Shown: in pieces, positions 2,885-63,550 of the stretch
How positions within the stretch are numbered: the stretch's first letter is position 1
Layout: every line of letters begins with the position of its first letter
Origin: Eledone cirrhosa
Taxonomy: Eukaryota
NCBI GenBank assembly: GCA_964016885.1
Contig: OZ024751.1
Location: 37,634,001 to 37,698,000, forward strand
Reading direction: 5' to 3'
Length of the DNA stretch: 64,000 nt
Notes under the pieces: generated by a model
What the model was told of the DNA's origin: nothing
The model's database searches: none
The model's input: only the letters and a program-made list of their open reading frames with translations
Translations under genes and position numbers: made by a program

Positions 2885-2962
2885 TTTTGAAATCGGGTTT
2901 TGGTATAAATGTGTATCCCTAAGTTGATCGTAATATCCCCTTAGATGATATATATTTATGGG
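2885..2962 (+). repeat. Dispersed ~80 bp repeat, copy 1
   Basis: 'ttttgaaatcgggttttggtataaat...agttgatcgtaatatccccttagatgatatata' recurs with mismatches at 4472-4545. Confidence 0.75.
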
Positions 2963-3790
2963 TACATACATACACATATATACATATATATACATATACA
3001 TGCATATAAATACATATACATATACACACATACATATATACACATATACTCATATACATATATACACATACACACATATACATATATATATACATACACA
3101 AATATATATATATACATACATACACAAATATATATATATACATACACAAATATATATATATACATACACAAATATATATATATACATACACAAATATATA
3201 TATATACATACACAAATATATATATACATACACAAATATGTATACATACATACACAAATATATGTACATACATACATACATACACAAATATATATATATA
3301 CATACATATATATATATACATACATACAAATATATATATACATACATACAAATATATATATACATATAAATATATATATACATATATACAAATATATATA
3401 TACATATATACAAATATATATATACATATATACAAATATATATACATATATACAAATATATATATACATATATACAAATATATATATATATACATACATA
3501 CAAATATATATATATATATATACATGCAAATATATATATATATATATACATACAAATATATATATACATACAAATATATATATATATATATATATATACA
3601 TACAAATATATATATACATACACATATATATATATATATATACATACAAATATATATATACATACAAATATATATATATATATATACATACAAATATATA
3701 TATATATATATACATACATACATAAATATATATACATACATACATAAATATACATACATACATACATACATACATACATACATACATACA

Positions 3791-3826
<36 letters not shown>

Positions 3827-3835
3827 TATATATAC
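2963..3835. repeat. Compound (TA)n/TACA/TACAAA micro-minisatellite, ~870 bp
   Basis: Directly visible. It explains the YI/MY pseudo-ORFs. Confidence 0.97.
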
Positions 3836-3949
3836 CTTGGCGTCTGCGTGCCTGACCTAAATTTGGGTATACGCCATTGATGTGTAATTATTGATTGGTA
3901 TTTGGAAAGATAACAAAAAAAAAAAAAATCAATAATAATTAAGGTACAT

Positions 3950-46452: not shown

Positions 46453-47826
46453 AACAGTTTTATAGATAAATAGATTTGACATACCGTACAACATCGACTT
46501 GTATTTGAAAAGTTGAATTGGCAGTGAAAAAATTGTACACAGAGAGAAAGAAAGAGAGAAAAAAGGAAAGAAAGACAGAAAACGAAGAAAAAGAAGAAGA
46601 AAAAAAAGAAAAAAAAAAGAAAAAGAAGAAATGCATGGAACAAAATAGAGAGATGGAAAGATAGATAAAGAGAAGAACTTCATGTAAAGAAACAGAGAGA
46701 TATATATATATATAGAGAGAGAGAGAGGAAATAGAGATAGATATATATATATAGAAAACTAGGTAGTGGGACGTCCGTTGAGTAAACGTATCAATGATAC
46801 ATTTATTTATTTATTTATTTATTTAGCTCTAGTATTAATGTAAGGGAGATATATGTGGTTAGGAGAGAAACCAGCTGTTATATAGAGAGAAAAATTAAAA
46901 ATAACCAGACATAGGCGAGGCATAAAAACCCTATGTTTTAATGTAGAGGTATTAGTATGTATAAAAACCAGCCACTATATTGTAAATATCAGTATTCCTG
47001 AATGAGACATGTATCCATAATGTGTGAAAAGTAATGATCTTATGTTTAGTTTAAAAAAAAAAAAAAAAAATTCATATGTTTATGTGATAACTACAAACAT
47101 CTATGTGAATTTACATGATCAACTCTGCAAACCCTAGGTACACGGAAAACATTCTCATTGTGCTATAAAAATTTAAGTATACATATATGTGTATATATAT
47201 ACACACATATATATAGAGAGTCAATATTACTACTATTCCTGTCTTTACTCTACAAGATTATCTATCAAGCAGAAATAGAGAGCAGATTTCAATATACTAA
47301 CAAAAATATATATCAGAAACAAAACCAAAAAATAACAATAATAATAATAATAATAATAAATAAATAATAATAAAATAGAAAACTAAAAAATATTACGAAA
47401 GAATATTACATATTAAAAATATTACATATTAAAAATAAAAATATTAGAAAATACTACAATAATAAAAATAAACCACAAAGATCAACCCTTCAAAATTAAT
47501 TGACAATATATTGTCAAGTTCATTATAAGCATCAGAGTCGAAAAACAGATAAAGCTAAAAATTATTTATCAAATCGCATCTAGCAAAAATCATTTCAAAA
47601 AGTTTAGGATGCCCATTTGGTCTACATGTGTTCTTATATTTAATATAGAAGTTTATCTAGTGTAACGTTTATTCGAAATATTTGGAGCATCAACTTTTAG
47701 GGTAGCTTAATTTTTCATGAAGAATGTTTAAATAAAAATAAAAATAAAAAATAAAAAGAATAAAAAGAAGAAATCGAAAGATTTATCGGCTAGTTTCCCA
47801 TATAATTATAAATCAAACTAAATATA

Positions 47827-50040
47827 CTACATTTTAAATTTAAATTTATATTTAAACGTTGAGTTTAATCTATGTTTGCAGCAACTGAATAAATTTGTCC
47901 GTAGATTAAGGGAATTTTTAGATTTTAGTATAAAGAATATCTCCTCTGCGCAGAGGTCACATGTCTCAGAGGATGAATTAAAAGGAATCCCTCTTGAGAC
48001 TATATTCCAAGCCGTCGAATATCTAACGTTATCTAGCTTAAGTTGCCAGAGTACGCCTGATAGTGCCGTTGAAGATTTTTTGCTTGGATCTGTGAAAGAA
48101 TTCTTGTGGTTATTGTAGCGAAGTTTAAATTCCGTCGATGTGGAACCGACGTAGTTAAAAGAATTAGAGTCAGTTTTAACATTACAATTGTATACTATAT
48201 TTTTAACTAAGCAGTTGTTATTTAACGGACATTTAGATCTATCTCTACAGTTACATTTGTTAACTTGTATATTATTTATGCTATTATCACTAGGTTTTAA
48301 GTTCCTATTATTTATTCTATTAATATTTTGTGCTAAATTTTTGGTGGATGAGTAGGTTAATTTTATAGTATGTCTATTGAAAATTGAGTGATACCTATGT
48401 GTTCTAGGGAAGCGATTATCAAGAGCTTTAAAAAATAGTTTAGCGATGTGGGTTTTAATGTTTAGTGAGAAAGGGGGGGCAAACCAAATTATGTTCCTAG
48501 TTCTATTTCTTTTTTGGCCTTTGGAATTATTGTAATGCTTTCTATTATAGTTGTTAAGGTTGTTGCCGTAATTAAAATAGTTGTTATTTTGTTTAGTTTG
48601 TCTATCATTATCTATGTACATAATCTTATCAGTATATCCTGCTCTAGCTAATGCTTCATTGTAGTATTGGGCTTTTTCGTCGAAAATCTTTCTATTCGAC
48701 GAGATCCTAGAGATACGTTTTTGAACAGAGTTTACTATAGTGTTTTTGACAGATCTGGGGTGGTTAGAGTTAAAGTTGACATAGTTTAAGTTTTCATTCA
48801 ACTTGTGAAAAGGATAGTGAAGACATGTGTTGAGATTTAATGTTATATCTAGGAAATTGACTATTCTATGGTTGTTCTCAATTTCTATTTTAAGATTAAA
48901 GTAATTAAAAAATTGTGTAATTTGTTTACATTTTCTATTTAGTTCAGAGTTATTATTATCAATAAGTAAAAGCATGTCATCTCTATATAAACCTCCAGTA
49001 GTACCATGTATTTTCCTATGTAGCGAATTGATTAAAAATAAGCCCACAAGGTCAGTTACCTGAGCTGAGTCGGATGATCCCATAGTAATGTCAAAATTGC
49101 TATCTCTATCTGCTCTGGTCCATAGTTGGTCATTAAATTCTATCAAAGTTTTCCTAGCCGATAATATAATATGCATTTCATTGCTAGTTAGGTCAGTATG
49201 TTTGAATGCGTAATTTAGTGCCTTATTTAGTAGATTAGGGGTAATAGAAGAATAATAGTTAGCAATATCAAGTTGAATAAACTTATTATTATTGTTATAT
49301 TTAATTTGCTTAAACCACTCAACAACCTCTCCAGTTCCCTTCCACAAGCTCAGGTTAGATAAACAATCCAAGTTCTTAATTTGCTGTATCACCCTGTCAA
49401 GAATGTTTTTGCTTATTTTGCCCAGGTCCGATTTTGATGGTGCGATCAATCTAACTGGCAAGTCATTTTCAAAATTCCTCTTGTGATCTTTCATATTGAT
49501 CTTCGGTTTCCTGGGCACGAAAGGTTGTGTTCTGTTCTCAATTTCCAACTCGTGCATTATACAAGATGCTTCGACATTCATTTTCTCAAGCTCGGCCTTA
49601 TCTGCTACCTTGTACTTTTTCCTCAGTTCCTTCAGTATGAGGCCATTATACATGTCTTTCTGCACTCCATAGAGGTTGTTGGTCTTGTCAGATTTCACCA
49701 AGATCTTCTCAGTTTTCTCTAAGCTCTCAATATTATCCTTAATGCCTTTCAGATATTCCTGGCCTTTGAAGTTTCTCTTGAATTTGACCCCTTGTATGAT
49801 AGAAATTATATCGTTTTCAAAGTCAGATAAAAGTTTGTTAGGGGGTGGATTTCTTTTAGATTTGAAAATTTTGTTTAAGTCCGAGACATTTTCATTTATA
49901 TTAGATTTATCAAAGTGGAATGCTCGCCACCTGATTCTCCTTATAAAAGAGTCAGATTTATCTATTAATTGTTTTATAAAGTCTTTGTTTCTAGGTAGAG
50001 ATATGTCTTTTAAAGAGGAAGTAATCTTAAAGAATTCCAT
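47827..50040 (-). CDS. Penelope-like reverse transcriptase / GIY-YIG endonuclease, 737 aa
   Basis: N-terminal SLKDISLP and IRRIRWRA, then KSDKT. RT motifs QLDIANYYSSI, TMGSSDSAQVTDL, LYRDD, VNFLDITL. Thumb YVNFNSNHP, then IIWFAPPFS. Linker CNCRDRSKCPLNNNC. GIY-YIG NIVY...YVGST..FKLRYNNH. C-terminal CDLCAEE...LN...CKH. No stops. Confidence 0.96.
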   Translation of the reverse strand: MEFFKITSSLKDISLPRNKDFIKQLIDKSDSFIRRIRWRAFHFDKSNINENVSDLNKIFKSKRNPPPNKLLSDFENDIISIIQGVKFKRNFKGQEYLKGIKDNIESLEKTEKILVKSDKTNNLYGVQKDMYNGLILKELRKKYKVADKAELEKMNVEASCIMHELEIENRTQPFVPRKPKINMKDHKRNFENDLPVRLIAPSKSDLGKISKNILDRVIQQIKNLDCLSNLSLWKGTGEVVEWFKQIKYNNNNKFIQLDIANYYSSITPNLLNKALNYAFKHTDLTSNEMHIILSARKTLIEFNDQLWTRADRDSNFDITMGSSDSAQVTDLVGLFLINSLHRKIHGTTGGLYRDDMLLLIDNNNSELNRKCKQITQFFNYFNLKIEIENNHRIVNFLDITLNLNTCLHYPFHKLNENLNYVNFNSNHPRSVKNTIVNSVQKRISRISSNRKIFDEKAQYYNEALARAGYTDKIMYIDNDRQTKQNNNYFNYGNNLNNYNRKHYNNSKGQKRNRTRNIIWFAPPFSLNIKTHIAKLFFKALDNRFPRTHRYHSIFNRHTIKLTYSSTKNLAQNINRINNRNLKPSDNSINNIQVNKCNCRDRSKCPLNNNCLVKNIVYNCNVKTDSNSFNYVGSTSTEFKLRYNNHKNSFTDPSKKSSTALSGVLWQLKLDNVRYSTAWNIVSRGIPFNSSSETCDLCAEEIFFILKSKNSLNLRTNLFSCCKHRLNSTFKYKFKFKM

Positions 50041-50087
50041 TTTTCCAGTTATAATATAAAGCGCTCAACAGTATTGGAGCAAGATAC

Positions 50088-50171
50088 ATGGAAAGTTATA
50101 TTTAAATTGTTGGGTTACAACTAGTAAATATTTATAACTGATATAAAAGCACTCGACAAGTATTTGGAGTA
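50088..50171 (+). repeat. Direct repeat copy 2 (5' leader of the ORF)
   Basis: Matches 46249-46332 and lies 48-131 bp upstream of the ATG on the minus strand. Confidence 0.95.
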
Positions 50172-50511
50172 AATTCACATAGATGTTTGTAGTTATCACA
50201 TAAACATATGAAATTTTTTTTTTTCTTTTTTTCTTTTCTTATTTTTTTTCTTCTTTTTCTTCGTTTTCTGTCTTTCTTTCCTTTTTTTTCTCTCTTTCTT
50301 TCTCTCTGTGTACAATTTTTTCACTGCCAATTCAACTTTTCAAATACAAGTCGATGTTGTACGGTATGTCAAATCTATTTATCTATAAAACTGTTTATAT
50401 TGTATTTTGTCTGAGGAAGGCATAGCATATTGTTAATATGATATCCCTGAAATATATATAATGAAATAAATATGGTTTTATAAATATAGTTTCCATTTAT
50501 TTAATATCGTA
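50169..50511 (+). repeat. Inverted, internally deleted pseudo-LTR
   Basis: 50169-50212 is the reverse complement of 47071-47114, and ~50221-50511 is the reverse complement of 46337-~46625. The two parts are joined through T-runs. Confidence 0.95.
50397..50474 (+). ncRNA. Type I hammerhead ribozyme in the inverted pseudo-LTR
   Basis: CTGAGGA at 50411-50417 and GAAA at 50449-50452, with predicted cleavage after 50460. Same sequence as 46375-46452. Confidence 0.85.
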
Positions 50512-63012: not shown

Positions 63013-63045
<33 letters not shown>

Positions 63046-63172
63046 GCAGAAGATTCTATTTAATGTTGTTGGGATACAACAAGTAAATATTTTTATAACT
63101 GATATAAAGCACTCGACACATATTTGGAGTAGATATACGATATTAATAAATGGAAACTATATTTATAAAACC

Positions 63173-63248
63173 ATATTTATTTCATTATACATATTTCAGG
63201 GATACCACATTAAATTATGGTATGCCTTCATCAGACAAAATACAATAT
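63173..63248 (-). ncRNA. Type I hammerhead ribozyme, left arm
   Basis: TATTGTATTTTGT-CTGATGA-AGG-C-ATACCA-TAATTTAATG-TGGTAT-C-CCT-GAAA-TATGTA-TA^ATGAAATAAATA. Confidence 0.88.
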
Positions 63249-63403
63249 ATAACAGTTTTACAAATAGGTTTGACGTACCCTTTAAAATACAACCATTACT
63301 TTTGGAGGCAGCCTCCAAAAGTAATGGTTGTATTTTAAAAGGTACGTCAAAAGTAATGGTTGTATTTTAAAGGGTACGTCAAACCTATTTGTAAAACTGT
63401 TAT

Positions 63404-63479
63404 ATATTGTATTTTCTCTGATGAAGGCATACCATAATTTAATGTGGTATCCCTGAAATATGTATATTGAAATAAATAT
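63404..63479 (+). ncRNA. Type I hammerhead ribozyme, right arm (two stem I substitutions)
   Basis: CTGATGA at 63418-63424 and GAAA at 63455-63458. Stem I reads ttttct/ttgaaa instead of ttttgt/atgaaa. Confidence 0.75.
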
Positions 63480-63513
63480 GGTTTTATAAATATAGTTTCC
63501 ATTTATTAATATC

Positions 63514-63550
<37 letters not shown>

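What the first reader, a model, noticed from the sequence alone, without database searches (positions are those of the whole stretch)
63046..63515. ORF-less palindromic mini-element carrying two hammerheads (possible non-autonomous PLE partner or retrozyme-like unit)
Seen: 470 bp with the same end architecture as the 4.3 kb element (a ~90 bp tail on the left and an inverted arm on the right ending at 'atatcgta' before (TA)n), but folded back on a 1-nt loop with no coding sequence. It diverges from the big element, so it comes from a sister subfamily. A transcript from either strand would form a ~170-bp hairpin and contain one sense hammerhead. Inference: it is either a one-off abortive insertion made by snap-back priming or a propagating non-autonomous family, and it could be a source of dsRNA or small RNAs against the family.
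Basis: partly seen in the sequence, partly recalled or inferred. Interest (0 to 1): 0.8.

Follow-up and report, generated by a model that had tools for sequence, protein, structure and literature searches.

The report
One-off folded stub of Penelope retrotransposon
This mirror-image piece of DNA is real but is most likely a single failed insertion of a known kind of jumping gene (Penelope-like, likely Hydra group), not a spreading mini-element; its fold point fits two partial copies joined head to head rather than one copy folding back on itself.

Summary
The anatomy is confirmed: 91-nt tail, 173-nt arm, 1-nt loop, inverted arm with a 32-nt duplication, (TA)n on both sides, and 88% identity to the ends of a Hydra-type Penelope element 13 kb away. 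The family idea fails. The arm sequence up to the apex stands at about 160 times single-copy depth, but the family continues past it into other sequence (85 and 59 reads in two individuals, at most 3 beyond the apex each). Relatives fold back at many other positions. It is not retrozyme-like: the two hammerheads are on opposite strands, one has both arm mismatches in stem I, and neither is predicted to fold in a read-through RNA. Opposite-strand hammerhead pairs and inverted stubs are published features of Penelope insertions. One useful detail: the 'loop' base is templated by the parent on the other strand, and both ends sit at fixed sites 5-7 nt before copies of one small hairpin. This fits priming from both cut ends followed by a cDNA-to-cDNA jump, better than snap-back. 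The scan reported such stubs and the twin hairpins before, elsewhere in this genome. No read or contig spanning this exact apex was listed.

The parts
63021..63045 (.). (TA)n target, left part
63046..63136 (-). Tail (91 nt), present at one end only; homologous to the 86-87-nt tail of the large element, which is a copy of the sequence just upstream of its ORF
63108..63130 (-). Small hairpin motif (hairpin 1), beginning about 6 nt 3' of the short-end site; the second copy (hairpin 2) lies beyond the long end and is not in this element
   Evidence: motif found 4 times in the window, all in these two elements
63137..63309 (-). Left arm: 5'-truncated 3' end (pLTR) of a Penelope-like subfamily, sense on the minus strand
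   Evidence: contig 63263-63308 exact at depth 1722 in X1
63178..63242 (-). Minimal type I hammerhead, looks intact: 8-bp stem I with 2 wobbles, CUGAUGA core at 63234, long stem II with one internal mismatch, short palindromic stem III, AUA site at 63186
63309..63311 (.). Apex. The left copy ends at 63309; the right copy, read on the minus strand, matches the parent two bases further (to 63309), so the junction has 1 nt of overlap and no untemplated base
   Evidence: (loose ends at 63309 on both sides)
63311..63515 (+). Right arm: inverted copy without tail, ending at the family's fixed short-end site
   Evidence: (TA)n joined before 63133 in 5717 reads of X11 and 60 contigs of X1
63317..63383 (+). 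32-nt tandem duplication with short microhomology (TTTG on the minus strand) and one substitution at 63340
63410..63474 (+). Second hammerhead, core intact, stem I broken at 63416 and 63467; predicted impaired
   Evidence: pair probability 0.00 at the first two stem I pairs
63516..63547 (.). (AT)n target, right part
46252..50510 (-). Context: full-length relative with the same two ends; unit 3836 nt; hammerheads at 46437 (-) and 50411 (+); 3-nt overlap at its inversion junction (50172-50174)
47827..50040 (-). Context: intact 737-aa RT plus C-terminal GIY-YIG ORF with Hydra-clade motifs; the kind of enzyme that likely made the stub
50060..50080 (-). Context: hairpin 2, beginning about 7 nt 3' of the long-end site, homologous to hairpin 1
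   Evidence: score 35; best of 3920 other windows 24; 1 of 5000 shuffles as high

Best explanation
The element is a tail-plus-palindrome stub in (TA)n whose fold point is not shared by its relatives, most likely a single early-terminated insertion of a Hydra-type Penelope-like subfamily in which both cut ends of the target likely primed a cDNA and the two short cDNAs were likely joined head to head. Steps. (1) Shown: target (TA)n, two fixed ends, each 5-7 nt before a copy of one hairpin in the intact relative. (2) Inferred, from the two internal start sites and two-strand cleavage of the anole enzyme (PMC11167929): the left end primes at the far site and so copies the tail; the right end primes at the near site. 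(3) Shown: the two copies stop within 2 nt of each other; the right one slipped back 32 nt, about 8 nt before stopping. (4) Inferred: the left cDNA jumped onto the 3' end of the right cDNA through 1 nt of overlap, giving the apparent 1-nt loop. (5) Predicted: the product is a dead end. In either transcript the hammerhead lies in the second arm and is paired away, and the hairpin behind the long end was not copied. Odds: one-off stub about 0.85; the two-primer-and-jump route about 0.55.
For: Apex not shared. X1 contig 63263-63308, exact, depth 1722 against 10.6 for the flanks. In raw reads of two other individuals mean depth is 92 and 62 at 63305-63309; 85 and 59 reads go on into a different sequence, and depth is at most 3 in each from 63310 on. 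X1 depth is 20.8 at 63340 at 85% likeness and 0 at 63345-63384 at 92%. Other fold points: of 15 joints listed (5 more not shown), 8 are opposite-strand joints and 6 cross from left arm to right arm at other positions; one search shows another fold-back at 63288. Apex letters: the parent continues with TG after GGAGGC, and the minus strand of the right arm reads GGAGGC-TG. The large element's junction has the same geometry with a 3-nt overlap. The short end is family-wide. Published: inverted 5'-truncated copy and one-ended tail (PMC8557442); hammerheads 100-700 bp apart on opposite strands (PMC4209133); palindromes at inverted junctions (PMC3846280).
Against: No contig or read spanning this exact apex was listed, so the junction itself rests on the assembly. 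Contig sets drop rare paths, and the RAD-seq runs sample only some loci, so a family of a few copies is not excluded. One X1 contig (396 nt, depth 8.4) crosses the apex with 2 gaps after an unrelated upstream flank, and other junctions fall at 63308 and 5 nt beyond 63309: ends may cluster here. The apex argument rests on 2 letters and on the majority parent sequence (agreement 0.83-0.85). The parent's upstream part and any ORF were not seen. Earlier notes report edited hairpin copies in this genome, which would mean that some hairpin RNAs are re-copied (not checked by me beyond this element).
Confidence: 0.7

Rival explanations
1. Same one-off stub, but made by snap-back: the tail-bearing cDNA folded on a weak internal palindrome and copied itself back to the short-end site.
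For: The parent has a weak palindrome across the apex (4 pairs, one a wobble, from the loose-end letters). Self-priming was proposed for such palindromes (PMC3846280, passage). All 4 arm differences lie in the right arm, as for an error-prone second copy (chance about 1 in 8).
Against: On the tail-bearing strand the observed apex differs from that product at 2 letters, while the two-cDNA reading needs none. A 1-nt loop cannot form by folding (general knowledge). The right arm stops at the same fixed site in both elements and across the family, just before hairpin 1.
Confidence: 0.13
2. The parent is itself a short non-coding unit (a retrozyme-like circle of roughly 320 nt) carried by Hydra enzymes, and this is a less-than-unit-length insertion of it. 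This changes the parent, not the one-off nature of the stub.
For: The last 30 nt before the apex and the sequence beyond it are unlike the large element. About 160-fold depth of an exact 46-mer points to a young subfamily. Earlier notes describe 310-, 468- and 522-nt hammerhead units with this insertion layout in the same genome (unchecked).
Against: No joint running from beyond the apex back to the tail was among the 15 listed (weak: 5 not shown, 150-nt reads). The hammerhead is of the minimal PLE type and the shared part is 88% identical to an ORF-bearing element.
Confidence: 0.15
3. A propagating non-autonomous palindromic family with a fixed apex.
For: Up to 3 reads per individual lie beyond 63310 and could span the apex; one contig has a near-identical apex with 2 gaps.
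Against: Those reads fit equally as parent reads placed on the right arm. The bulk of reads leave at 63309. No high-depth apex contig is listed in X1 or X4. The element lacks hairpin 2, and its transcript is predicted to be fully paired.
Confidence: 0.05
4. Assembly or read artefact (fold-back chimera).
For: No apex-spanning record; X1 depth 0 at 63345-63384.
Against: Arms differ by 3 substitutions and a 32-nt duplication; the flanks are not mirrored; both ends fall on the family's fixed ends; both flanks match X1 contigs without a difference.
Confidence: 0.04

Closest known systems
Inverted, 5'-truncated insertions of endonuclease-bearing Penelope-like elements (PMC8557442, passages, section 11, supplement rows; PMC3846280, passages)
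   Same: Tail at one end only, inverted truncated copy at the 5' side, palindrome at the junction, hammerhead in the terminal repeat, microsatellite target.
   Different: Both copies stop so early that no ORF is present; the tail is about 90 nt, against 30-40 nt described.
Hydra clade of Penelope-like elements, including Hydra-1_Obim (PMC8557442)
   Same: The neighbouring ORF has DKT, CxCX5C, CxxC and CxH, lacks the usual CxxC of CCHH, and resembles the printed Hydra alignment by eye; (TA)n target.
   Different: RWK reads RWR; unit 3.8 kb against under 3 kb; its hammerhead differs from the one listed for Hydra-1_Obim. No tree was built.
Paired minimal hammerheads on opposite strands in Schistosoma (PMC4209133, parts 1-2 of 4)
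   Same: Two minimal type I motifs about 180 nt apart on opposite strands, long stem II, palindromic stem III, ascribed to truncated elements.
   Different: One motif here is damaged in stem I; the junction letters were not analysed in the parts I read.
Anole Poseidon element in vitro (PMC11167929, parts 1-2 of 4)
   Same: Two internal start sites bound the tail; AT-rich target; both strands cut and extended; predicted dimer.
   Different: There the sites lie inside the ORF in an AC-rich stem loop; here upstream of the ORF, each before a hairpin copy. The parts read do not explain the inversion.
Animal non-LTR retrozymes (PMC7229834, passages; bioRxiv 10.64898/2026.07.22.740005, part 1 of 5)
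   Same: Short, non-coding, type I hammerhead, likely moved by Penelope enzymes.
   Different: They are head-to-tail repeats with at least two same-strand hammerheads; this has one per strand.
L1 twin priming (recalled, no call)
   Same: Both target ends prime on element RNA, giving an inversion joined by microhomology.
   Different: In L1 the second primer anneals internally and the inverted part is not a second copy of the same 3' end.

Membership tests
Penelope-like insertion (EN+) | Terminal repeat homologous to an RT plus GIY-YIG element | tested here: met
   88% to the ends of the ORF-bearing element
Penelope-like insertion (EN+) | Tail at one end only and inverted 5'-truncated copy | tested here: met
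   definition
Penelope-like insertion (EN+) | Minimal type I hammerhead in the terminal repeat | tested here: met
   descriptor match only, cleavage not assayed
Penelope-like insertion (EN+) | Target-site duplication | tested here: inconclusive
   hidden in (TA)n
Hydra clade (neighbouring ORF) | DKT, CxCX5C linker, CxxC and CxH near the C-terminus, no CCHH | tested here: met
   DKT 118, CNCRDRSKC 596, only CxxC at 694, CKH 721; definition
Hydra clade (neighbouring ORF) | RWK motif | tested here: inconclusive
   reads RWR at 37; most homologues have RWK
Hydra clade (neighbouring ORF) | Generally under 3 kb | tested here: not met
   unit 3836 nt; a tendency, not a strict rule
Hydra clade (neighbouring ORF) | Placement in the RT tree | not tested
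   reference sequences seen only as supplement text
Hydra clade (the stub's own parent) | Parent carries a Hydra ORF | not testable with these tools
   no genome held; only 30 letters beyond the apex seen
Non-LTR retrozyme | Head-to-tail units with two or more same-strand hammerheads | tested here: not met
   one motif per strand; criterion
Non-LTR retrozyme | Hammerhead able to fold in the transcript | tested here: not met
   predicted only: stem probabilities below 1e-27 in both full transcripts
Non-LTR retrozyme | Monomeric or circular RNA | not testable with these tools
   needs RNA data
Non-autonomous palindromic family | Many copies share the same apex | tested here: not met
   a handful of copies not excluded

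The most novel reading that the evidence does not exclude
Penelope inverted ends are built by a two-site enzyme: two copies of one small RNA hairpin set two start sites, both ends of the cut target are extended on the element RNA, and the two cDNAs are fused by a template jump at their 3' ends. Near-perfect palindromes like this one arise when both stop at the same point, and their apices record the jump base by base.
Probability: 0.45. Interest if true: 0.6.

Novelty: new member of a known kind. Interest (0 to 1): 0.25.

Why it matters
As an object it is ordinary: one of many truncated, inverted insertions of a high-copy family. Its value is as a clean junction. How Penelope elements make inverted ends is open: self-priming was proposed in 2013 (PMC3846280), and the 2024 in vitro study leaves the later steps unvalidated (PMC11167929). 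This apex and the large element's junction both read as two parent-templated ends overlapping by 1 and 3 nt, a pattern that can be counted genome-wide and tested in vitro. Two junctions are too few to settle it, and the scan has noted the two-end idea before.

Tried and rejected
No whole genome is held, so the apex could not be searched directly in the assembly. Run search: no RNA holder listed, so expression, small RNAs and editing are untested. Metagenome scan with a 37-nt arm pattern: 0 matches. Rfam: nothing at gathering level; only hairpin-type hits below threshold. Pfam: no significant match for the large ORF, for 4 frames in the element, or for 3 frames in the left flank and 2 homologues. 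Look-ups of earlier findings by sequence or place were blank; they were blank for the large element too, so I draw nothing from them. The repeat finder was swamped by microsatellites. ADAR-type origin of the arm differences rejected: 0 of 3 substitutions are A-to-G on either strand. A shifted cleavage register that would rescue the plus-strand hammerhead was not found. Selection against that hammerhead was considered (both substitutions in stem I) but not adopted: the count is post hoc, and the motif is predicted to be paired away anyway. Isolated-motif folding gives weak stem I support even for intact copies (0.05-0.34 at 37 C), so activity of any motif is unproven. Paper searches listed no paper on a palindromic non-autonomous Penelope family or on twin priming in Penelope elements; for I saw listings only, and subscription journals and Repbase are not covered. 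PMC6962438 (passages) added nothing.

Full report
Observation. The 470 bp are as described: (TA)n, a 91-nt tail (63046-63136), a 173-nt left arm (63137-63309), one unpaired A (63310), a right arm (63311-63515) and (AT)n. The arms differ by two substitutions and a 32-nt duplication with one more substitution, all four in the right arm when judged against the left arm and the large element. The predicted hairpin is far beyond chance (-279 kcal/mol, 0 of 100 shuffles). There is no coding signal.

Relatives in the window. The element is 88% identical to the ends of a 4.26-kb element at 46252-50510, except for the last 30 nt before the apex. That element has an intact 737-aa ORF on the minus strand. 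The search gave 205 homologues among 7993 candidates scored; the best are 39% identical, and some are named from a cephalopod. The ORF has the motifs given for the Hydra clade in PMC8557442 section 11: DKT, CxCX5C, CxxC and CxH, with RWR for RWK. It resembles the printed Hydra alignment by eye; I built no tree. Both elements have a tail on the left and end on the right at the same base.

Hammerheads. A strict descriptor finds four motifs in the window and none in 100 shuffles: two in the large element, one in a separate 150-nt fragment, and the stub's minus-strand motif. They are of the minimal type described in PMC4209133 (parts 1-2 of 4 read), which work poorly and probably as dimers. The stub's plus-strand motif has both arm substitutions in stem I beside the cleavage site. 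In either full transcript the sense hammerhead lies in the second arm and pairs with the first; predicted stem probabilities are below 1e-27. A retrozyme needs two same-strand motifs (bioRxiv 10.64898/2026.07.22.740005, part 1 of 5; PMC7229834, passages). That test is not met.

Family or one-off. In X1 both flanks match without a difference at depth 10.6, and the terminal-repeat region has summed depths of 1e5 to 1e6 (summed depth is no copy number). A single exact contig at 63263-63308 has depth 1722, about 160 times the flanks; loci may be fewer, as inverted insertions carry two arms. The family does not turn back at 63310. In X12 and X13, mean depth at 63305-63309 is 92 and 62; 85 and 59 reads continue into a different sequence, and at most 3 lie beyond, which may be parent reads placed on the right arm. 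The right arm's private letter at 63416 has at most depth 14 of 17255. Of 15 joints listed (5 more not shown), 14 are inversion junctions at other positions, and one search shows another fold-back at 63288. Against this reading: no record spanning this exact apex was listed, contig sets drop rare paths, RAD-seq samples only some loci, and one X1 contig (depth 8.4) crosses the apex with two gaps after an unrelated flank. A few copies are not excluded.

How it was made. The published options are self-priming (PMC3846280, passages) and internal priming at two sites that bound the tail, by an enzyme that cuts and extends both strands (PMC11167929, parts 1-2 of 4). Three things here favour two separately primed cDNAs. 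First, the short end is fixed: (TA)n is joined before 63133 in 5717 reads and 60 contigs. Second, following a lead from earlier notes, I found that in the large element each end lies 5-7 nt before a copy of one small hairpin (score 35; best of 3920 other windows 24; 1 of 5000 shuffles). The stub carries only the first copy. Third, the apex. The parent continues with TG after GGAGGC, and the right arm read on the minus strand has exactly these two letters. So the 'loop' A is templated, and the two copies overlap by one base. The large element's junction shows the same with three bases. A snap-back of the tail-bearing strand would differ from what is seen at two letters. The 32-nt duplication lies about 8 nt before the right copy's stop and has short microhomology, consistent with a stalled enzyme slipping back. 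The target, ends, hairpins and junction letters are shown; priming, jump and stalling are inferred.

What it does now. Probably nothing specific. It lacks the hairpin behind the long end, so under the model it could not regenerate a tailed copy. If read through, it would give about 170 bp of double-stranded RNA, and 25 of 153 arm 21-mers match the large element. But inverted copies are common in this family, so this locus is not special. None of the three arm substitutions is of the A-to-G type.

Comparison and novelty. The inverted truncated copy with a one-ended tail is the standard layout of these elements (PMC8557442), and hammerhead pairs 100-700 bp apart on opposite strands were reported in 2014. 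The scan has described such stubs and the twin hairpins elsewhere in this genome (unchecked notes, not independent support). Five paper searches listed no paper on the two-primer route for Penelope inversions, but subscription journals, Repbase and the preprint's supplements were not seen. Verdict: a real, ordinary stub of an apparently undescribed subfamily, with one informative junction. What remains open is whether the parent is autonomous and whether copy ends cluster at this point.

Noticed in passing
window:46074-46230: A tail-less fragment of a third, more distant subfamily (about 72% identity) with a plus-strand hammerhead at 46130, set between two (TA)n runs directly beside the large element; stem II differs in sequence but still pairs.
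   Followed up: partly
window:50172-50230: The large element's inverted arm jumps about 400 nt between A-rich runs (from the equivalent of about 46636 to about 47053), and its main copy runs one full 3836-nt unit plus the tail and stops at the start of hairpin 1, 5 nt short of the short-end site; this would fit a circular or tandem template.
   Followed up: partly
window:47827-50040: Intact 737-aa Hydra-type ORF with terminal copies identical over their first 220 nt, so likely a recent insertion; no Pfam-A match in the copy searched.
   Followed up: partly
window:63283-63314: Several other copies end or turn near the apex: junctions at 63283, 63288, 63308 and 5 nt beyond 63309, and a variant subfamily (126 and 152 reads) that diverges at 63287 but shares the motif just before the apex. 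Possible stopping hotspot.
   Followed up: no
window:63416 and 63467: Both arm substitutions outside the duplication hit stem I of the plus-strand hammerhead next to the cleavage site; unexplained, may be chance.
   Followed up: partly
window:50534-50664: A small inverted repeat around a (TA)n run just right of the large element, seen by eye.
   Followed up: no
window:34400-37450 and 2900-3900: Very long degenerate (TA)n/(TACA)n microsatellite tracts, the first about 3 kb.
   Followed up: no
window:62616-62723: A short stretch of the left flank has about twice the flank depth in X1 and is also held by X5, so likely a low-copy repeat; no Pfam match.
   Followed up: partly
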